Both the position numbers and the translations under genes were made by a program. From the human T2T-CHM13v2.0 reference genome, Homo sapiens, in NCBI RefSeq assembly GCF_009914755.1, contig NC_060948.1: a DNA stretch of 64,000 nucleotides. One strand, 5' to 3'. The notes under the pieces are model-generated. The model had not been told where the DNA came from, made no database searches, and saw nothing but the letters and a program-made list of their open reading frames with translations. Of the stretch, positions 1,316 to 64,000 are shown piece after piece (position 1 is the stretch's first letter; each line of letters opens with the position of its first letter).

Positions 1316-2457
1316 TGCACACCCGTGCCTGTGTGCCTTTGTGTACCTTGGTTTGGGGGGGCCCACACTCCAGCCCACAGATGTGCCTCAAACTCAGCTC
1401 TTGCGCTGGCAAGCAGGGCACCACCAGGTTTGGCAATCCAAATTCAGGACCCCTGAAGCCTACACGCTAGGGAGACGCGAAGAGTCCTCATGGTTCTCAC
1501 AAATGGCAGAGGGAGGAGGAAAAGGGTGGCTGGCTCAAGCTACCTAGAGGAGATGCCATGGACCAGAAATGATATTTGGAGGGAAACAAAACCTAGCTGG
1601 TGCACGTGGGTCCCTTCCACGCCTTGAGGCCTGTTAACACCTGGGGCTCAGTTAGGCTCAACTAAGGCCCTCTTACCCTCCACGCAGAGGTGCACAGGAG
1701 GCAAACCCAGGTCTACGTCCTTCTAGAGTGGCCAGTCCTATCATGTTCTGTTTCAATGACTCCAGGGTCCCCTGACATGCTTTCTCCCTCTGCCACCCTC
1801 ACTCATGCTTCCCCAGCACTGAGACATTTCCTATGACATTAAAAAACAGACATAAAATTTGTAAAATACCTTAATACTATAGATGCAGATAAAGTAATTT
1901 GTTATGAAAAGTGCTCTTCCTCCTTACTTGTATCAGTCTTTTTCATGATGGGGGAAAGAATGCAACATACTTTGGTAAATTAAAAAAGTATAAAAGTAAA
2001 AATAAATCCCACTGTAGATGATCAATTAAATGGCAAGGAACCTTCTGTGTGTGTCCAGCGAAGCAATGTGGCTGAGCATTAAGGCTCACCTGAGTATTGG
2101 TGTAGACACCCAGTTTCCCTCATACCAGTGTGAGTGTGGGCATGTTCCCACCTGCGTGTCTGAGCTGGTGCACGAGTGTGCACACCTGTGCCTGTGTACC
2201 TTTGTGTACCTTGGTTTGTTGGGGGACACACTCCTGCCCACAGGTGTGCCTCAAACTCAGCTCTTGAGCTGGGAAACAGGGAGCCGCCAGGTTTCGCAAT
2301 CCAACTTCAGGACCTGAGAAGCCTGCGCGCTAGGGAGACGCAGAGTCCTCATGGTTCTCCAAACGGCAGAGGGAGGAGGAAAAGGGTGGCTGGCGTAAGC
2401 TACATAGAGGAGATGTCATGGACCTGAAATGACATTCGGAGGGAAATGAAACCTAGC
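1316..2457 (+). repeat. ~280 bp dispersed direct duplication (1316-1597 and 2178-2457) flanking TSPY 3'-end fragments
   Basis: tgcacacc(c/t)gtgcctgtgt...tttgtgtaccttggtttg...gcagagggaggaggaaaagggtggctggc...ggagggaaa...aaacctagc occurs twice. 1640-1820 matches TSPY intron 5 (27000-27185, 44835-45030), and 2028-2115 matches the TSPY terminal region (45108-45195). Confidence 0.85.
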
Positions 2458-2459
2458 AG

Positions 2460-3650
2460 CTGTTTCTATCTTCCTGTGTGTTCAGTCGGGGCATTCAGGG
2501 AAGAAGCAATGGAAACTGAGGGGCTTTGGGATTCGTTGTCTGGGAATCCCTGTGCACCAGAGAGTGCCCAGCCCATGAGACAGGAGGACAGCATGTGGGT
2601 CCGGCAGGGCCTGAGTCTCCAGGGAGGCTGGCATTCTCCCCAAGAGGGCATGGGTCGGCAGGTGGAGGAGAAACCCGGGCTGCGGGGTCAGGTAGATGAG
2701 ACACTTATCACTTAGTCAGGTGGTAGCTCAGAAACAGGCCGGTGACACCCAGTTCCAGTGCTTCATGTGCGCACACAAGCTTCGCCCCACGCATCCTCTC
2801 CAGGATGCCTCACCTGGGTGGATAGGAAGCAAGGCACACCGCATCCTAAGCTTATGGTCATGAGTGGACCCAGAGGGGGGTCTCCAGTATCACTGGTCCC
2901 AGGAGAGGCAGGCATGCATGGTCTCTTCAAGACAGGGGTAAAATGCATAAGCCCAACTCTCCACCCAGTGGGTGTCTTGCCCTGATGATGTCAGCCATGG
3001 CAGATACAGCTCTTCCACCTAGATTGCAGATCCACAGGCTTAAAACATCCCCCGGCATTCTCCGGGAATGGTCCCTGGACTCTGGACCAGCCAGTGCCCC
3101 AGGACTGTTCCTTCCCAGCCGCCAAGCTCATGGGAGGCTCAGTGGGGACTCTCCTCCTAGTACATGGCCATCCACAGGCACTGTCAACAACCCAGGGCCC
3201 TTCTACATTCTGGGGTCCTGCCACCTTACCCAGCAGCGGGATAATGGGAAGGGAAAGAGCTGGAACAGACAGAGTGGAGGCCACAAGCCTCACACTCCTG
3301 CATGGCAAGTGAAGGGGGGGGATCCTTTTCAGCCCAGGGAGCTGCTTCCTGAACATACCTGGAAGCCCAGCACAAGCTGAGGGATTCATTCCACTACAGC
3401 TGGGCATGGGGGATTTCAATGTGTGTCGGAGCCCTGGATCCTAGTCGCCCTACCAGGTGTACTTCTCCTCCAGGTCACATTATGTTCACAACCTCTTTAA
3501 CCCAGATGGACTCCTCCTCATCATCACATGGTGTTGGCTGTAAGGGTTACTTCTGGTGCCCCAGCTGCTGTTTCAAGGTGCAGAGATGGACCAGCAGACC
3601 CCTGAGTCCTTGTCCTCCTGTCCAAGTAATATCCATAGAAATAGTAAAAT
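2460..3650. other. GC-rich non-repeat segment downstream of TSPY 3' fragments; possibly FAM197Y/TTTY-like TSPY-array-associated sequence
   Basis: It lies immediately after TSPY 3' sequence and has several pyrimidine-tract/AG acceptor-like sites on the + strand. Identity is inferred from context only. Confidence 0.3.
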
Positions 3651-3916
3651 AGTGGCACGTTAGACCTCTTGACATTTTTAAGGCTGACATGTTTACAAGC
3701 ATTTCATCCAGATATTTATGAGTTTTTATCTCATTTATTTTATTTATTTATAGCTGTCATTTCAAAATCTATTTTTGCTTGAGAGTTATTTATACATGTA
3801 ACCAAATGTTCAGAGCTATGACATATAGGTTTCAAGGTTAAAAGTCTGTATCTGCTATTGTGTTGGGTAAAACCCATCCAGCACTTACAAAAATAATTAT
3901 TGATTAGGCATGGCCA

Positions 3917-54849: not shown

Positions 54850-57800
54850 GTTTATTCTGAGTATAATTCTGACTACTTGGAGAACAAACTCTAAGCTGCA
54901 AGTGAGTATCAGATTCAAGCAGAGAAACTAAACAAATGATGATGCTTCAACAAATGTAATGGCAGAGGAGGTGATACATGCAGTCGTTTCATGTGACTGT
55001 ATAAGTTGTGCTTTGCGTAAAGTTACTTGGCTGAGGGCATAAGTAATATGCAAATAATGATGTTGAGTATGTAGGTGATTTTTTATTGTTTTGAACTTTC
55101 TTCTAAATTCCCTCTGGTATTTGATTTCACTTTTTTAACCAGTGTTACAATTATTTATACCTAAATGTTACATGGAACTCATGTAGTATGTACCATGTAA
55201 AATTTATTACTGTCAATCAAGTAATATGAAATTTACATGTGATAGAAATGTATAATTTATACTTTTAAGTTAATATCTTATAATTTAATATATAAACCAT
55301 ATAAGCTATATAACTAACTTATAAATGTAAGTATTCCTAAACATACATAATATATCTGTATATGTTATAACTAACATATATGTATTGCATATAGATGAAA
55401 TGTATGCATTATATATTTTAATACAGATATACTATATGTCTATATGTATTTCCTTTTTTTATATACTTTAAGTTCAGGGGTACATGTGCAGATGTGCAGT
55501 TTTGTTACATAGGTATACACGTGCCATGGTGGTTTGCTGCGCCCATCAACCCATCATATACATTAGGTATTTCTCCTAATGCTATCCCTCCCCTAGCCCT
55601 CCAGCCCACTAAAGGCCCAGTGTGTGATGTTGCCTTTCCTGTGTCCATGTGTTCTCATTTTTCAACTCCAGCTTATAAGAGAGAACATGCAGTGTTTGGC
55701 TTTCTGTTCTTGTGTTAGTTTGCTGAGAATGATGCTTTCCAGCTTTACCCATGTCCCTGCAAAGGATATGAACTCATACTTTTTTATGGCTGCTTACTAT
55801 TCCATGGTGTATATGTGCCACATTTTCTTTATCCACGCTATCATTGATGGACATTTGGGTTGGTTCCAAGTCTTTGCTATTGTGAACAATGCCTCAGTAA
55901 ACATAAGTGTGAATGTGTCTTTATAGTAGAATGATTGACAATCCTTTGGATATACAACCCATAATGGGACTGCTGGGTCAAATGGTATTTCTAGTTTTAG
56001 ATCCTTGAGGAATAACCTGTCTGTACTCCACAATGGTCGAACTAATTTACACTCCCATCAACAGTGTAAAAGCATTTTTTTTCTCCACATCCTCTCCAGC
56101 ATGTGTTGTTTCCTGACTTTTTAATGATCACCATTCTAACTGGCCTGAGATGGTATCTCATTGTGGTTTTGATTTGCATTTCTCTAATGACCATTGATGA
56201 TGAACTTTTTTTCATATTTTTGTCAGCTGCATAAATGTCTTCTTTTGAGAAGTGTCTGTTCATACCCTTCACCCACTTTATGATGGGTTGGGTTTTTTTA
56301 TTGTAAATTTGCTTAAGTTCTTTGTAGATTGTGGATATTGGTGCTTTGTCAGATGGATAGAGTGCAAAAATTTTCTCCTATTCTGTAGGTTGCCTATTCA
56401 CTCTAATGATAATTTCCTTTGCTGTCAGAAGCTCTTTAGTTTACTTAGATTCCATTTGTCAATTTTGCTTTTGTTGCCATTGCTTTTGGTGCTTTAGACA
56501 TGAGGTGTTTTCTCATGCCTATGTCCTAAATGGTATTGCCTAGGTTTATCTTCTAGGCCTTTTTTGGTTTTAGGTCTTACATTTAAGTCTTTAATCCATC
56601 TTGAGCTTATTTTTGTATAAGGTGTAAGGAAAGGGTGTAGTTTCAGTTTTGTGTATATGGCTAGCCAGTTTTCCCAACAACATTTATTAAACAGGGAATC
56701 CTTTGCCCATTGCTTGTTTTTGTCAGGTTTGTCAAGGATCATATGGTTGTACCAGTGTGGTGTTACTTCTGAGGCTTCTGTTCTGTTTCACTGGTCTATA
56801 TCTCTGTTTTGATACCAGTACCATGCTATTTTGGTTACTGTAGCCTTGTATTATAATTTGAATTCAGGTAGCTTGATGCCTCCAGCATTGTTCTTTTTGC
56901 TCAGGATTGTCTTGGCTATGCGGGCTCTTTTTGGCTCCATATGAAGTTTAAAATAGTTTTTAACAATTCTGTGAAGAAATTCAATGGTAGTTTGATGGGA
57001 ATAGCATTGAATCTATAAATTACTTTGGGCAGTATGGCCATTTTCATGATATTGATTCTTCCTATAATGAGCATGAAATGTTTTTCCATTTATTTGTGTC
57101 CTCTCTTATTTCCTTGAGCAGTGGTTTGTAGTTCTCCTTGAAGAGGTCCTTCACATCTCTTGTAAGTTGTATCCCTAGGTATTTTATTCTCCTTGTAGCA
57201 ACTGTGTGAATTCACACATGATTTGACTCTCAGTCTGCTGTTGATGTATAGGAATGCTTGTGATTTTTGCACATTGATTTTGTATCTTGAGACTTTGCTG
57301 AAGTTGCTTATCAGCTTAAGGAAATTTTTGAGCTCAGACAGTGGGGTTTTCTAAATATACAATCTTGTAGTCTGCAAAAACAGACTACAAGACTTCCTCT
57401 TTTCCTATTTGAATACCCTTTATTTCTTTGTCTTTCCTAATTGCCCTGGTCAGAACTTCCAATACTGTGGTGAATAGGAGGGGTGAGAGAGGGGGCATTT
57501 TTGTCTTCTGCAGGTTTTCAAAGGGAAAGCTTCCAGGTTCTGCCATTCAGTATGATATTGGCTGTGGGTCTGTCATAAGTAGCTTTTATTATTTTGAAAT
57601 ATGTTCCATCAATACATAGTTTATTAAGAGTTTTTACCATGAAGGGGTGTTGAATTTTGTGGAAGGGCTTTTCTGGATATATTGAGATAATCATGTGGTT
57701 TTTTCATTGGTTCTGTTTATGTGATGGATTATGTTTATTGATTTGCTTATGTTGAATCAGCCTGCATCCCAGGTATGAACCCAACTTGATCATGGTGAAT

Positions 57801-59500
57801 ACACTTTTTGATGTGCTGCTGGATTCTATTAGCCTTTATTTCATTGAGGATTTTTGCATCAATATTCATCAGGGAAATTGGCCTGAAATTTTCTTTTTTT
57901 GCTGTTTCTCTGCCAGATTTGGTTATCAGAATGATGCTAGCCTCATAAAAGGAGTTACGGAGGATTTCCTCTTTTTCTATAGTTTGGCATGTTTTCAGAA
58001 TGAATGGTATCAGTTCCTCTTTGTACCTCTGGTAGAATTCATCTGTGAATCTGTCTAATCCTGGACTTTTTTTTCTTTTTCATTGGTAGGCTATTAATTA
58101 CTGCCTCAATTTCAGAACTTGTTATTGGTCTATTCAGGGATATGACTTCTTCCTGGTTTAGACTTGGGAGAGTGTGTGCATCCAGGAATTTATCCATTTC
58201 ATCTAGATTTTCTAGTTTCTTTGCATAGAGGTATTTATAGTATTCTCTGATGGTAAATTGCATTTCTGTGGAATCAGTGGTGATCTCCCCTTTATCACTT
58301 TTTATTGTGTCTTTTTGATTCTTCTGATTCTTCTCTCTTTTCTTGTTTATTAGTCTGGCTAGTGGTGTATGTATTTGTTGATCTTTTCAAAAAACCAGCT
58401 CCTGGATTCATTGATGTTTTGAAGGGTTTTTCATGTCTCTATCTCCTTCAGTTCTGCTCTGATCTTAGTTATTTCTTGTCTTCTGCTAGCTTTTTAATTC
58501 GTTTGCTCTTGTTTGTGTTCTCTTGTTCTTTTAATTTTGATGTTAGTGTGCTGATTTTAGTTATCTCCTACTTTCTGTTGTGGACATTAAGTGCTGTAAA
58601 TTTTCCTTGAAACACTGCTTTAAATGTTTCCCAGAGAGTCTGGTAACTTGTCTTTTTTCACATTGGTTTCAAAGAACATATTTATTTCTGCCTTCACTTC
58701 ATTATTTACCCAGTAGTCATTCAGGAGCAAGTTGTTCAGTTTCCATGTAATTGTGCAGTTTTGAGTGAGTTTTTAAATATTGAGTTCTAATTTGATTGCA
58801 CTGTGGCCTGAGAAACTGTTTTTTTTTTAATGATTTCTATTCTTTTGCATTTGCTGAGGAGTGTTTTACTTCAAATTATGCAGTCAATTTTAGAATAAGT
58901 GCTTTTCCTCTGAGGGTAATTGCGGCTATAGGGAGAACAAAATGTTAGCTACAAGTGGGCATCAGAATCAAGCAGAGAGGCCAAACAAATGATGATGGCT
59001 TCAACAAACATAATGGCAGAGGAGGTGATACAAACACTCATTTCATATGACTGTATAAATTGTGCTTTGCCTAAAATTACATGACAAAGAACGTAAGTAA
59101 TATTCAGATAATCATGTTGCGTATGTAGGTGATTTTTTATTGTTTAGAACTTTCCTCTAATTTGCTTCTGGTATTTTATTTTACTCTTTTAAACATAGTT
59201 AGAATTATTTGTGCCTAAGTGTTATGTGGAACTCTTGAAGTATGTACCATGTAATATTTAATACTGTCCATCAAGTAATATGAAATTTACATGTAATAGA
59301 AAAGTATAATTTACACTTATAATTTAATATATGTATAAACCATATAAGCTATATAACTAATTTATAAATATAAGTATCCCTAAACATATACAATATATGT
59401 GTCTGTGTATTTTATAATTAACATATATGTATTGCATATATATGTAATTTATACATTATATATTTTAATACATGTATACTATACGTCTATATGTATTTCT
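54850..59500 (+). repeat. Diverged ~600 bp direct duplication (54850-55452 and 58903-59500) flanking the L1
   Basis: Shared blocks: tcaagcagaga...aaacaaatgatgatg...taatggcagaggaggtgataca...gtatgtaggtgattttttattgttt...atcaagtaatatgaaatttacatgt...gtctatatgtatttc. Confidence 0.9.
55453..58902 (-). mobile_element. 5'-truncated L1PA (~3.4 kb, decayed ORF2 plus 3'UTR)
   Basis: Antisense 3'UTR (tatactttaagttcaggggtacatgtgcag). ORF2 peptides on the - strand: [59 protein letters not shown]. Confidence 0.96.
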
Positions 59501-59509
59501 AATATATAT

Positions 59510-62500
59510 GGTTATCTTTGTTTCCACCCATTCAGGTACAGCAAGATAGTCCTGTTCTTTCCCTCTTTGGCCGTCACTGGGAACGGGTAGGCCTGGTCAG
59601 TGATACCTCAGAAGCCTGTTATGACCCTGTTCTTGTCATCAGGACAGGTTATACATATCTTGGATTAGATGGCCTATCAAGACATCCCAGAAACCACTGG
59701 GTCGTATTTGTTCCCTACCCTGCAATTTTCCTCCTGGAGTAGAAAATAGTCCACAAAACACACTTAGCTGTAACATAAGCTCTGACACTTTGGTCTTCCA
59801 TGGATTCTCAGTACAAACATGGAGAAGATTAAGCACTTCCCCAGTGAACAGAAAGCACTGGCATACTTATTCAATGTTTTTGGTTCAAATAATAGAGACT
59901 TTTTTCATGCCAAAAGACTATTACACTTTCAAAGTGGTCACCTCTCCTCAGCTAGCAAATTCCCAAAGGTATGATCCTGGATTTCTCCTGTTGCCAAACC
60001 ATGGGATCATCCTGATACAGCTGAATGCTGGAGTACCCCAGAAACTGACACTTCTCAATATTTCTTTTTTTCTGGACCCCAGAACTCCCAAACAGCTATT
60101 ATACCTATACCCTGGAATCTTCCTCAGAAAAAGACAACAAATTATAAATATCAAGCTGTGACTGATTCAGCAAGATCCTGGATTAATACATTAGCTAGTA
60201 AAATTAGGCTTCATACTCTACCATTAGTTAATATTGGTGGATCCTGGTTTCTCTTTTCAAGGGGCCTAGGTGGATCTCAAGTTCCTTCTGAGATTGATAC
60301 TGGTCAGTCTCAAGTTCAATCTGTTAATGTTCTGTCTCATGGACAAATTGTAGCTAGACCTTGGCTAGAAATTACTCCTGAAGTTGAAACTTGGAAACAA
60401 TTTGTGTCTTATAAAACAGGAACAGATTCAATCCAGTGAAGAGAGTATTAGACACCAAACATATCATGTAGCTCATAGAGTTAACCCTGGTGCTAAACCA
60501 TCAACTTACAACTAGATTCCACCAGTACTTTTCATAGTTAATAAAATTGAACTATGGGCTCATTCATCCCTCAGTGAAGATGGATTTCCGTATCCTACAG
60601 TAACCCATATTTTTGAACCATGGTGTCAGCTACTCTTGAATGTATTTGGATCCCAAGAAACTATAGAAAAGACAGATGGATACTGGACTCTTGTGGAACC
60701 TAAGTCAACTTGGTTCTGGATTTCTTCTACACTGCATACTCCATATTCACGTGCTAAGTCAAAAGGTGATACTATTAGGTCTTGGATCCAAAATAAAACC
60801 AGTATGATCAGGCCCTCAAATCAAACGGATAGATTTAGTACCTTGAATAAACATTAGGCTATTATACTCAAACCCCTGATGCAGACATGCATCCTATTAT
60901 GAACATAATTGAGCCCTTACTTCACTCTAAAGTTGACATGATCAGACCCTGGAGTCAGCCTGAAACAGCCATAGTCCAAATGTGGACCTAGGCAGAAACT
61001 CAGTCAGGAAGACTCTTGACTTGCCTGAAAGCTGGTACAATTAATCCATGGTTACAAACTGAAATTGAAAGAATGAGACCCTGGATTCAGCGTAAATTTA
61101 AAATATTGAGACCCAGAACCCAGACTGAAGAATGGAAACAAGAACATTGGGCCCAACCAGAAACAGATCCAGTTAGGTACTGGGCCCAAACTGGAATGGA
61201 AACAGTGGTACCTGGGCCCCAACCTGAAGGTGATAAAAGCAGACCCTAGAATCACACTGAAGCTGATATCAAACTTTTGTTTCAGTCTCAAGCAGAGACA
61301 GTCACACAGTGGAGAGAACCAGCAACTCTGACAGATCATCATTAGATACAGTCTGAAACTGCAATAGTGAGGTTTTGGAACCGATCTGTGACTGATAAGT
61401 TAAGAGACTGGATACATCATGAGATTATGCATTTAGACTCTGGGGTGAGGTTGAAAGTGATAAAGTTAGATCCTGGACCAAAGTTGAAGATGACACTTTG
61501 AGACACTCGATTCAGAAAGACATTGGTGTAATCAATTCCTGGGTACAAAATGAAGCTACTATATTAACACCATGCATTCAGGGAAAGTCTTGAGAATTAA
61601 ATCCCTGACATAATCTGAAACTTCCACAGTGCCACTGTGGACCCAGACTGAAACTCCAACAGTAAACTCTTGGACAGATATGTTATCAGATACAGTCACA
61701 GTATGGACAAAGGCTGAATTTCAAGGATTAACATCCACCCATCTATTGAGGGAAACTGATCCAATCATACTGTGGACTATTACCAAATCTCCAGCAGTGA
61801 ATCTCTGGACACATTCTGTATGTGATGAAGCCAAATTTTGGAACCAAGAAGAATTTCCAGCCTTATTGCCTTTGACAGAGCCTATAGCTAAGACAGTCCC
61901 ACAATGGATCCAGGATAGATTTCCAGCAATGAACCCCTGGGCAAAAACTATGGCTGAAACTGTCATACCATTGACCCTTGATGAAATGACACCAGTAAGT
62001 CCTTGGACAAAATTACAGCCTGAATATCTAGAAGGAAATACTTGGCTCCCATCTGAATTTAATCCAGTCTCATGGTGGACCATGGCTTATCTGCCAGCAG
62101 TAAAAAACTGGATACGTTTTGATACTGAAACAATAATGTTGTGAAACCAGGTTGAATTTCCAGCAATACATTCCTGGAAACAGTTGGAAACTGATATAAT
62201 CACACTAGGGACCCAAGCTGAATCACTAGTGATGAATTCATGGATACACTCTCCTATATCTGATATGGTCACAATGTGTATCCAGGCTGAATCATTATTA
62301 TTACATCCTTGGACACAGTCTGAAACTGATATACTCACAACATGGATTCTGGCTGAAACTCTAGGAGTAATTCCCTGGGAACAGGATATATTCCAACCAT
62401 GGACCCACGCTGAACACCCACCAGTATCTTGGACTCAATCATTGATTCCGGGTAAAACACCAGCAATGAATCCCTGGAGAGATGTCACAGCTGATATGGT

Positions 62501-63496
62501 CCTACCATGGAATCAGGCTGAATTTATAGTAGGAAATGCCTGGACACAGTCTGAAACTTATACAGTCACACAGGGGATCCTGAATGGTCCTCCAGCACGA
62601 TATTCTTGGACACAACAAATAGCTGATGTAGACAAGCTGTGGACCAAGCCTGAATTTCCCACAATAAATCCCTGGACAAAGTCTGTAGGTGATACTACTA
62701 TACAATAGTATAGTAGTGATAGTACTATACAATAGATTCAGGATGAGTCTCCAGCAATAAAACCATAGACACAGTATGTGTCTTATACAATCAAACCATG
62801 GGCCCCAGATGAATCTTCAGCAGTAAATCTCTGTACACTCCCTGAATCTGATAGCATTATCCTGTGGACACAAGCTGAGTCTCCAATGGTAAATCTGTGC
62901 ACAGAGGCTGCAACTTCCAAAGTCACACCATGGGCCCGGGCTGTATCTCCAGCAGTAATTCCATGGACACAGCCTATACCTTCCATAATTGTACCTTGGA
63001 CCCAGGTTGAATGTCCATCAGTAAATACCTGGACAATGTCCATAGCCAATACCATCACACTATGGAACCGGGCTGAATTAATAGCGGGATATCCATGGAT
63101 ACTGCCACGGGCTGCTACTATCACACTATGCACAGTCTGAATCTGCAGTAGGAAATCTTTGGACACAGCCTGTATATGACACAGACACTCCATGGCGTAA
63201 GGCTGAATCTTCAGCAGTAGTTTACTGGACAGAATCTGTAGCTGATACACACACACCATGAACTCAGTTTGAAGTAAAGTTTACAGTTTTTAACAGTAAA
63301 GCCTTGGATCCAATCTGTATCTGATACACTCATACCCTGGACCCAGGCTGAGTCTTCAGCAGAAAAGCATTTGACACAGGCAATAGCTTATACAATCAAA
63401 CGATGGAACTAAGTCAAATCACCTGCCATAAATCTCTGGAAACAATATGAAACCAATATGTTCACGTGGTGGACTGAGGCTGAATCTCCAAAAGTT
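59510..63496 (+). pseudogene. PRSSLY: Decayed giant exon encoding an 11/22-aa Trp-periodic repeat protein; probable PRSSLY-like (Y-linked serine-protease-like) exon 1 pseudogene
   Basis: ORF pieces at 61629, 62184 and 62778 share one frame. They repeat W(T/I)Q.E.P.(V/I).P about every 11 aa (e.g. PWTQSETDILTTWILAETLGVIPW; PWTQPIPSIIVPWTQVECPSVNTW), and several stops fall on Trp positions. The symbol is inferred from Y-linked context and recalled gene architecture; no protease domain is visible in the window. Confidence 0.5.
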
Positions 63497-64000
63497 TTGA
63501 GGAAACCAGCCCCACACTGCCTGGCAGGTACCCCGAATCCAGTGGAGACAAAGGAATTAGTACAACGGAGACAAAGGAATTAGAAAGAGACAGAATAAGA
63601 GTTTAAAAGGTGGGTTCAGGGGACCAGAGCATCGGACACTTGCAAATGGCGTGGAGCTCTCGGCCTCCACCTAATTTATTAGTTTACAAGCTCTTTGTTC
63701 TTAGGGCAGATGGGAGGGGGAGGAAGGGAATGAGGAAAAGGTTTAATCCGTGAAGGAGAACTTGTGAGTCATTCAATAAAATGTATAGCAGTGGCAGTTT
63801 CTGTGAATTTCCTTGAGCAAAGGCATGTGTCTAAACGACTAAAGATCTTTAACTTATTGAGACTGAAATGGGTGGGAGTGGATTTCAGGAGAAGCCAAGA
63901 TGTTTGATTATACTCCACTTCTTCAAGGGAGTGTTATTTCCCGGAGCAACCTGTGGCATTCTTCTGAGCTCTTATGCTCTTAGGGCATAAAGACATGAAG
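63497..64000 (-). mobile_element. ERVK-class LTR (LTR14/HERV-K14-like), running off the window end
   Basis: gaggaaaccagccccacactgcctggcaggtaccccgaatccagtggagacaaaggaattagaaagagacagaataag...tttatt (poly-A signal on the - strand)...ctctttgttcttagggcagatgggagg. It interrupts the Trp-repeat ORF. Confidence 0.65.

What the first reader, a model, noticed from the sequence alone, without database searches (positions are those of the whole stretch)
59510..63496. Fossil ~4 kb single-exon ORF with 11/22-aa tryptophan periodicity: likely a dead PRSSLY-like gene
Seen: ~4 kb with no recognisable transposon and coding-like composition. From ~60900, Trp recurs about every 11 codons. From ~61600 two alternating unit types (W-T-Q-A-E-S/F-P-A-V-N-P and W-T-x-x-x-A/S-D-T-V/I-x-P) form a 66-nt higher-order repeat. 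ORFs 61629-62144, 62184-62708 and 62778-63140 share one frame, and the stops at 62142 (TGA) and 62706 (TAG) sit where TGG is expected, the signature of a once-open frame. A non-repetitive leader of ~450 codons precedes the repeats. Known: PRSSLY is a eutherian Y-linked testis gene with a very large first exon upstream of trypsin-like protease exons, reported lost or pseudogenised in some lineages. Inference: this is a remnant of that exon. If it is not, it is an undescribed repeat-protein gene.
Basis: partly seen in the sequence, partly recalled or inferred. Interest (0 to 1): 0.85.

Follow-up and report, generated by a model that had tools for sequence, protein, structure and literature searches.

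The report
Dead PRSSLY gene on human Y
This stretch is the front half of a long-dead copy of PRSSLY, a giant testis gene that other mammals still keep on the Y chromosome; human PRSSLY pseudogenes are already published, though this copy is not in the RefSeq gene table given for the window.

Summary
Window 59536-63496 (+) is the 5' half of the giant exon of a PRSSLY pseudogene. TGG recurs every 33 nt (28 pairs against 0.26 in shuffles), with a 66-nt higher-order unit from about 61.6 kb. Twelve in-frame stops, six of them at Trp positions, and at least eight frame changes break the reading frame.

A 6.1-kb LTR element (63497 to 69634, beyond the window) splits the exon. The repeats resume at 69635-72850. 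Eight small exons follow (74185-80127) and encode two catalytically dead trypsin-like domains. All of this is colinear with an intact 2547-aa mole protein (P0019) and with giant Trp-periodic ORFs from unnamed sources.

Hughes et al. [quoted passage not shown]

I did not find three points in that paper:
- This copy matches their chimpanzee model, not their human model, which maps to a paralogue 12% diverged.
- The human Y holds about 13 large copies in five old lineages, and the TSPY array units examined carry PRSSLY's last two exons.
- The giant exon is an array of about 200 eleven-residue Trp-anchored repeats, also seen in the mole protein.

The parts
59536..59700 (+). Start of the giant exon: remnant of the C-terminal strands of an upstream trypsin-like domain ('D0'), VQQDSPVLSLFGRHWERVGLVSDTSEACYDPVLVIRTG / YISWIRWPIK. 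One frame change falls near 59650. An AG (possible splice acceptor) lies at 59534-59535.
   Evidence: tblastn of P0006 residues 96-204 to 59536-59858, 57-74% identity. P0006 residues 57-142 match granzyme M at E 4e-4, and all 38 PDB hits at E<=10 are trypsin-fold proteases. No further D0 exons were found upstream in the window.
59819..60890 (+). Leader of the giant ORF, homologous to the N-terminal ~350 residues of intact relatives, with a candidate ATG at 59819. It is weakly 33-nt periodic and broken by 3 stops (59972, 60513, 60855) and 2 or more frame changes.
   Evidence: P0005 residues 15-41 match 59876-59965 at E 5e-6. P0006, P0007 and P0009 are colinear at 45-57% identity, and P0003 residues 41-295 match 60116-60875. 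Stops. Periodicity profile.
60890..61600 (+). Trp-every-11-codons repeats with a simple 33-nt period. There are 3 in-frame stops (60989, 61247, 61343; two at W positions) and 2 frame changes.
   Evidence: Lag-33 identity 0.46 against baseline 0.26. Frame tracking. Stops.
61600..63496 (+). Trp repeats with a 66-nt (22-residue) higher-order unit in which two unit types alternate. One frame runs 61614-63140 with stops at 62142, 62706, 62733 and 62766 (all at W positions) and 63138. Two more frame changes and a stop at 63410 follow before 63496.
   Evidence: Lag-66 identity 0.48 exceeds lag-33 identity 0.40. Units. Stops. tblastn of P0019 to 61578-63137, E down to 5e-44.
63497..64000 (.). Window part of a 6138-bp LTR-retroelement insertion that splits the giant exon. 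The whole element runs 63497-69634 in continued numbering. The 5' LTR is 63497-64100 and the 3' LTR is 69035-69628, 85% identical. About 6 bp of target sequence overlap at the junctions.

Parts of the same fossil that lie outside the window (continued numbering, + strand):
- 69635-72850: 3' half of the Trp-repeat array.
- 72928-73647: Ser-rich linker and conserved end of the giant exon.
- 74185-74360, 74833-75086, 75263-c.75395 and 75508-75835: trypsin-like domain D1 (TTARY, GDLRAP).
- 77166-77342, 77703-77960, 79201-79335 and 79867-80127: trypsin-like domain D2 (WILTAAHC, NDQALLLL) and the C-terminal tail.
- TSPY14P starts 5.3 kb further on.
   Evidence: Insertion: self-BLAST and junction BLAST against paralogue L005. 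Precise empty sites were seen in 7 paralogues (b1-b4, D1, D2 and the 8.547 Mb copy), and the element is also absent from B and C, which carry deletions at or next to the insertion site. Its last 234 bp match dispersed autosomal copies at 88-90%.

Outside parts:
- Periodicity and frame tracking.
- P0005 residues 2156-2355, E 5.7e-20.
- tblastn of P0019: 48% identity at the exon end, 53-86% for D1 and 54-80% for D2.
- Pfam Trypsin E 2.9e-4 and 2e-10.
- PDB factor IX E 2.3e-8.
57001..58904 (.). Context: a dispersed interspersed repeat just upstream, shared with the Y paralogues. It marks the 5' limit of Y-specific sequence.
   Evidence: Query positions 2-1904 match many autosomes at about 85%. 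Positions 1905-3901 match only chrY.

Best explanation
Window 59536-63496 is the 5' half of the giant coding exon of a dead, unannotated copy of PRSSLY (protease, serine-like, Y-linked).

The whole fossil spans chrY:22,317,536-22,338,127 (window 59536 to 80127 in continued numbering). In order it contains:
- The tail of an upstream trypsin-like domain.
- A leader of about 350 codons.
- About 200 eleven-codon Trp-anchored repeats, whose central part has a 22-codon higher-order unit.
- A Ser-rich linker.
- Eight small exons encoding two trypsin-like domains.

In the intact mole relative, domain D1 lacks His57, Asp102 and Ser195. By eye against the recalled trypsin motifs, domain D2 keeps His and Asp but lacks Ser. 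The ancestral product was therefore a giant pseudo-protease, not an enzyme (inferred).

This copy no longer codes. The window part alone has 12 in-frame stops and at least 8 frame changes, and a 6.1-kb LTR element splits the exon. Differences between the human copies are spread evenly over the three codon positions, so they show no sign of selection on coding sequence.

Today the sequence lies antisense inside the first intron of the lncRNA PRORY. It is one of five old lineages of PRSSLY fossils on the human Y. These were copied together with the neighbouring TSPY gene.
For: Shown by tools:
- The periodicity far exceeds chance.
- Colinear protein homology runs from the first to the last exon with P0019 (Talpa occidentalis, 2547 aa, two Pfam Trypsin stretches).
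- Homology also holds with P0006, P0007 and P0009 and with P0005 and P0003.
- Two His-motif exons pass Pfam Trypsin.
- The D1 alignment to plasma kallikrein shows H57R, D102G and S195L in P0019. The human exons read TTARY and GDLRAP.
- Stops and frame changes are listed.
- The LTR insertion has empty sites in paralogues.
- Giant-exon sequence occurs only on chrY: 33 of 33 matches.
- Variable columns between lineages number 66, 67 and 70 of about 245 at codon positions 1, 2 and 3 (p=0.94).

Read from print:
- Hughes et al. [quoted passage not shown]
- By eye, their chimpanzee model start differs from window 61534-61933 at 6 of 400 positions.
- By eye, their PRSSLY domain sequences match the D1 exons.
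Against: - P0019 is named only 'uncharacterized protein LOC119250672'. Its identity as PRSSLY rests on my comparison by eye with the sequences in Hughes' Additional file 5, which the tool shows cut at 400 characters.
- No alignment program was run on the published models.
[quoted passage not shown] That does not fit the many human copies unless the statement refers to intact genes only.
- No expression data for this particular copy were seen. The published human TPM values (0.13-0.23) belong to a model that starts in paralogue C.
- The even spread over codon positions would also be expected for a functional PRSSLY giant exon (Ka/Ks near 1 according to Hughes), so on its own it does not date the death of the gene.
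Confidence: 0.95

Rival explanations
1. An undescribed repeat-protein gene, dead or alive, unrelated to PRSSLY.
For: Pfam finds no family in any of the six window ORFs tested. The repeat array itself has no named domain.
Against: The array is colinear with proteins that end in PRSSLY-type trypsin-like domains. The matching exons lie downstream in the same orientation. The chimpanzee PRSSLY model starts inside the array.
Confidence: 0.01
2. A non-coding Y-specific satellite or transposon-derived tandem repeat whose 33-nt period only mimics codons.
For: The sequence is multi-copy on the Y. Differences between copies show no codon-position bias.
Against: - Tandem Repeats Finder finds no array.
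- The units are diverged at DNA level, but the Trp position, the alternating unit types and the frame are kept.
- 6 of 12 stops are TGG-derived and sit at W positions.
- Intact ORFs of 2357-3058 aa with the same 11-residue Trp spacing exist in other sources.
- The copies sit inside large segmental duplications and are not dispersed.
Confidence: 0.01
3. The locus is a pseudogene for PRSSLY but still does something, for example as a transcribed non-coding RNA, as a source of short peptides, or as regulatory sequence for PRORY.
For: Hughes et al. report low-level transcription of the primate pseudogenes (human TPM 0.13-0.23 in the testis samples and in two of three brain samples). The region lies inside PRORY, and PRORY's annotated 5' end (69109) falls in the 3' LTR of the inserted element (hub table). 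Stop-free stretches of up to 187 aa in the window and 256 aa beyond it survive.
Against: No conservation signal was seen: substitutions are even across codon positions, and the paralogues carry different indels and deletions. The TPM values are near zero and were measured on another paralogue.
Confidence: 0.04

Closest known systems
PRSSLY (protease, serine-like, Y-linked) and its primate pseudogenes, Hughes et al. 2022, BMC Biol 20:133 (PMC9178871)
   Same: It is Y-linked. A giant single exon lies upstream of trypsin-like exons. The conserved domain reads ...SFSHFCAGSILNEQWILTTAR.... The frame is broken, as reported for human, chimpanzee and rhesus. By eye the window copy is the orthologue of the paper's chimpanzee model (6 differences in 400 nt).
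   Different: - The paper's 'Human (model)' start maps to another copy (chrY 10.24 Mb, 12% diverged).
- The published models start at the equivalent of window 61534, about 2 kb downstream of the exon start mapped here (59536).
- The paper calls PRSSLY single-copy.
- Its main text does not contain 'TSPY' or 'tryptophan'. Its supplementary files held as text do not contain 'tryptophan', 'tandem', 'periodic' or 'repetitive'.
PRSS55, which Hughes et al. name as the closest paralogue
   Same: Both have a trypsin-fold domain, and both are testis genes according to the paper.
   Different: PRSS55 is autosomal, of ordinary size and essential for mouse male fertility (paper). Here the nearest autosomal match of the D2 His exon is only 47% identical. 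I did not identify which autosomal hit is PRSS55.
TSPY tandem array (recalled name: DYZ5, 20.4-kb unit)
   Same: The sampled array unit begins inside the PRSSLY D2 intron (continued numbering 78897). It carries recognisable copies of PRSSLY's last two exons (E 2.4e-25 and 6.9e-7 against the mole protein). At this locus TSPY14P lies 5.3 kb downstream of PRSSLY's last exon.
   Different: The array units keep only the last 1.5 kb or so of PRSSLY. The window copy keeps the whole gene body.
Multi-domain serine proteases with dead domains (polyserases, recalled) and giant-exon genes such as MUC16 (the comparison made by Hughes et al.)
   Same: Several trypsin-fold domains sit in one chain and some lack catalytic residues. 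One exon of many kilobases is built of short repeats.
   Different: No sequence relationship was tested or claimed. The repeat here is an 11-residue Trp-anchored unit, not a mucin repeat.

Membership tests
PRSSLY | Located on the Y chromosome in eutherians, with no X copy | tested here: met
   The window is chrY (hub table). All 33 of 33 giant-exon matches and 40 of 40 scored last-exon matches are on contig C24, with none on C23 or the autosomes.
PRSSLY | Giant single exon holding most of the ORF, upstream of the protease-like exons | tested here: met
   Fossil exon 59536-63496 plus 69635-73647 (about 8 kb without the insertion), colinear with P0005, P0003, P0006 and P0019. It is followed by 8 small exons.
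PRSSLY | Conserved trypsin-like domain with the PRSSLY sequence (His57 replaced, 'TTAR') | tested here: met
   Pfam Trypsin E 2.9e-4. 86% identity to P0019 over LQLSFSHFCAGSILNEQWILTTARYGNFM. Match by eye to 20 or more PRSSLY domain sequences in Additional file 5. No program alignment to the published sequences was run.
PRSSLY | Orthology to a published primate PRSSLY pseudogene model | tested here: met
   By eye, 394 of 400 nt are identical to the start of 'Chimpanzee (model)'. Only the first 400 nt of each model are visible. Two 23-nt motifs from 'Human (model)' hit only paralogue L004.
PRSSLY | Intact open reading frame (a functional member) | tested here: not met
   12 in-frame stops and at least 8 frame changes in the window part, further stops and frameshifts in the D1 and D2 exons, and an LTR insertion. 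It is therefore a pseudogene.
PRSSLY | Single copy per genome (as stated by Hughes et al.) | tested here: not met
   11 Y loci carry giant-exon sequence, in five lineages 10-15% apart. For the last exon there are 60 candidate places, of which 40 were scored.
PRSSLY | Testis-specific expression | not testable with these tools
   No expression data are available here. The published TPM values refer to another paralogue.
Active S1 (chymotrypsin-fold) serine protease | Catalytic triad His57, Asp102, Ser195 | tested here: not met
   D1 of P0019 aligned to plasma kallikrein shows H57R, D102G and S195L. Human D1 reads TTARY and GDLRAP. D2 keeps TAAHC and ND(L/Q)ALL, but the GDSGGP position reads VIPGSA in the mole and VSSGSV in human. 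This D2 reading was made by eye against the recalled motif.

The most novel reading that the evidence does not exclude
Three linked claims make up the boldest reading.

1. The human Y carries a family of PRSSLY fossils, not one pseudogene. There are five lineages 10-15% apart, 11 loci with giant-exon sequence and two with protease exons only, and roughly 40-60 copies of the last exon. PRSSLY sat directly upstream of TSPY and was copied with it. The TSPY array unit begins inside a PRSSLY intron.

2. The published human and chimpanzee 'PRSSLY pseudogene' models would then be paralogues, not orthologues.

3. The giant exon, described in print as having no identifiable domain, is an array of about 200 eleven-residue Trp-anchored repeats with a 22-residue higher-order unit. 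The 11-residue Trp spacing is also seen in the mole protein. The ancestral protein had three trypsin-fold domains, two of them (D1, D2) shown or read as catalytically dead and the third (D0) known only from its tail.
Probability: 0.6. Interest if true: 0.5.

Novelty: already known. Interest (0 to 1): 0.3.

Why it matters
PRSSLY is described by Hughes et al. as the only ancestral X-Y gene known to have been lost from the X but kept on the Y. Its loss in primates is part of that story.

The core finding adds nothing to that published result beyond placing one unannotated copy precisely on T2T-CHM13 chrY:22,317,536-22,338,127.

The side results could matter to people who work on the Y:
- PRSSLY remnants give a shared landmark for reconstructing how the TSPY array and the Yp and AZFc duplications were built.
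- Comparisons of 'the' primate pseudogene need to be made between orthologous copies.
- The Trp-anchored 11-residue repeat gives a concrete handle on a giant protein region so far described as featureless.

Tried and rejected
- Pfam on six window ORFs and on the repeat ORFs beyond the window found no family. The repeat has no named domain.
- Tandem Repeats Finder found no 33/66-nt array.
- I first took the second His-motif exon (77166-77342) for a separate protease pseudogene between PRSSLY and TSPY. I rejected this when the mole protein showed two tandem trypsin-like domains in one chain.
- Recent autosomal origin of D2 is rejected: the best autosomal match is 47% identical.
- A search for further exons of the upstream domain D0 in the window found nothing better than E 1.1.
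- Of the 17 hits of the representative search, I scanned 9 against Pfam. Three (P0011, P0012, P0018) carry bacterial domains and are taken as chance matches to repetitive sequence. P0015 and P0016 also look unrelated.
- AlphaFold2 on the 256-aa human repeat ORF with a 12-row alignment of repeat segments gave mean pLDDT 44.2 and pTM 0.40. Only beta strands of modest confidence appeared in the last 100 residues. I draw no fold from it.
- Literature searches for PRSSLY plus TSPY (6 papers, 5 listed, none by title about the human copies) and for TSPY plus 'serine protease' plus pseudogene plus 'Y chromosome' (1 unrelated paper) found no description of the PRSSLY-TSPY link. I saw only the listings.
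Full report
**Observation**

- In 59510-63496 there are 108 TGG. The only spacings from 3 to 139 nt with 8 or more pairs are 33, 66, 99 and 132 (30, 31, 20 and 19 pairs).
- In 60866-63496, 28 of 70 TGG have a partner at +33. 1000 shuffles gave a mean of 0.26 (max 3). Random placement of the same number of TGG gave a mean of 1.8 (max 7).
- In 61600-63140, self-identity is 0.40 at lag 33 and 0.48 at lag 66, against a baseline of 0.25. This supports the 66-nt higher-order unit. A control stretch shows nothing.
- The three ORFs share a frame.
- The stops at 62142, 62706, 62733 and 62766 all fall where Trp is expected.
- Tandem Repeats Finder sees no array, so the repeat is old.

Two corrections apply. 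Weak 33-nt periodicity already begins near 59.85 kb. The first 55 or so codons after 59536 are not leader but the tail of a trypsin-like domain.

**Identity**

A profile-free search of 1.84 billion representative proteins used a 256-aa open stretch of the same repeat, taken from just beyond the window. It gave 17 hits.
- The hits include giant ORFs P0003 (3058 aa) and P0005 (2357 aa), and closer relatives P0006, P0007 and P0009. None of these has a Pfam family.
- Three of the nine hits scanned against Pfam are unrelated bacterial proteins.

A second search, with P0005 as query, found P0019, 'uncharacterized protein LOC119250672 [Talpa occidentalis]'.
- It is 2547 aa long with two Pfam Trypsin stretches.
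- It has 49 Trp-Trp pairs at distance 11, against at most 6 at distances 9, 10, 12 or 13.
- After the repeats come a Ser-rich linker, two trypsin-like domains and a hydrophobic tail.

tblastn places these proteins colinearly on the window and its continuation.
- P0006 aligns from 59536 onward at 47-74% identity (summed E 7e-136).
- P0005 and P0003 align from the leader to the exon end.
- P0019 aligns from the repeats through eight small exons at 74185-80127 (48-86% identity in the non-repeat parts).
- Two His-motif exons pass Pfam Trypsin (E 2.9e-4 and 2e-10).

**Link to the published gene**

Hughes et al. 2022 (PMC9178871) is the reference paper. I read the abstract, sections 5 and 7, passages, and parts of the supplements.

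The paper describes PRSSLY as a Y-linked testis gene with a giant exon and one conserved trypsin-like domain. [quoted passage not shown]

By eye, the PRSSLY domain sequences in its Additional file 5 match the D1 exons here, including 'TTAR' in place of the catalytic His motif.

By eye, the first 400 nt of its chimpanzee model differ from window 61534-61933 at 6 positions.

The supplementary sequences are shown cut at 400 characters, and I ran no program on them.

**Anatomy**

The fossil runs from 59536 to 80127 in continued numbering.
- An LTR element of 6138 bp (63497-69634, LTRs 85% identical) splits the giant exon. Seven paralogues show the precise empty site, and two more lack the element.
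- The repeat array covers about 59.85-63.5 kb and 69.6-72.85 kb, roughly 200 units. The 66-nt unit is strongest across the insertion site.
- The window part has 12 in-frame stops, 6 of them at Trp positions, and at least 8 frame changes.
- D1 of the mole protein aligned to plasma kallikrein lacks all three catalytic residues. By eye, D2 keeps His and Asp but not Ser.
- The ancestral protein was therefore most likely a binding pseudo-protease, not an enzyme. This is an inference.

**Surroundings and copies**

Giant-exon sequence occurs only on chrY, at 11 loci. Two further loci hold only the protease part.

Over window 61759-62510 the copies form five lineages 10-15% apart. The window copy is A, and the others are B, C, D and b. 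Younger pairs exist within lineages: B1/B2 at 0.9%, D1/D2 at 1.6%, and b1-b4 identical.

These distances are 7-10 times the human-chimpanzee difference seen above. I infer that the duplications are tens of millions of years old.

Substitutions between lineages are even across codon positions (66, 67 and 70 variable columns).

Two motifs from Hughes' human model hit only lineage C, at 10.24 Mb. The published human and chimpanzee models therefore appear to be paralogues.

Homology continues downstream through TSPY14P in several copies.

The sampled TSPY array unit starts at continued position 78897, inside PRSSLY, and carries its last two exons. For the last exon there are 60 candidate places; 40 were scored, and all 40 are on chrY.

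[quoted passage not shown] Its main text contains no 'TSPY' or 'tryptophan'. Its supplements contain no 'tryptophan', 'tandem', 'periodic' or 'repetitive'.

**Verdict**

The finding is real and the PRSSLY reading is correct, but the existence of human PRSSLY pseudogenes is published. I therefore rate novelty as 'already known' and give modest interest.

The multi-copy structure, the link to TSPY, the paralogy of the published models and the Trp-repeat architecture were not found in the one paper read or in three literature searches (listings only). They deserve a proper check.

AlphaFold2 gave no usable fold for the repeat (mean pLDDT 44.2).

Noticed in passing
window 63497-64000, continuing to 69634 outside the window: An LTR retroelement of 6.1 kb with 85%-identical LTRs (63497-64100 and 69035-69628). 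The annotated 5' end of the minus-strand lncRNA PRORY (69109 in the hub table) falls inside the 3' LTR. The LTR may therefore supply PRORY's promoter; this is inferred from coordinates only.
   Followed up: partly
chrY 8.96-9.85 Mb (e.g. L024 625-2291), outside the window: The sampled 20.3-kb TSPY array unit begins inside a PRSSLY intron and carries recognisable copies of PRSSLY's last two exons (E 2.4e-25 and 6.9e-7 against the mole protein). About 30 units at 20.3-kb spacing match the same 1.5 kb of DNA. PRSSLY followed by TSPY is the order at this locus and in copies B, C, E and G.
   Followed up: yes
L004 / L023 (chrY 10.232-10.249 Mb, minus strand): Two 23-nt motifs from the start of Hughes' 'Human (model)' occur only in this paralogue, which is 12% diverged from the window copy. 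Their chimpanzee model start matches the window copy. The two published models therefore seem not to be orthologous.
   Followed up: partly
chrY 22.79, 23.46, 25.30 and 26.92 Mb (L005-L008): Four copies of the fossil are identical over the 752-nt segment compared. Their spacing and orientation fit what I recall of the four 'blue' AZFc amplicons. They lack the first 860 nt or so of the query, and their downstream homology stops just short of the TSPY14P start.
   Followed up: partly
window 57001-58904: A dispersed interspersed repeat with many autosomal copies at about 85% identity. It is shared with paralogues B and C and in part with D, so it was inserted before those copies split.
   Followed up: partly
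window 59100-59535: An AT-rich, low-complexity stretch (TATATGTA-like) lies directly upstream of the exon start. It may have replaced or pushed away the earlier exons of the upstream trypsin-like domain, none of which could be found in the window.
   Followed up: partly
P0006 residues 1-142 (unnamed source): In a closer relative the giant ORF runs in frame out of the C-terminal third of a trypsin-fold domain (granzyme M, E 4e-4). This hints that PRSSLY once had, or in some species still has, a third protease-like domain N-terminal to the repeats. The paper describes only one such domain.
   Followed up: partly
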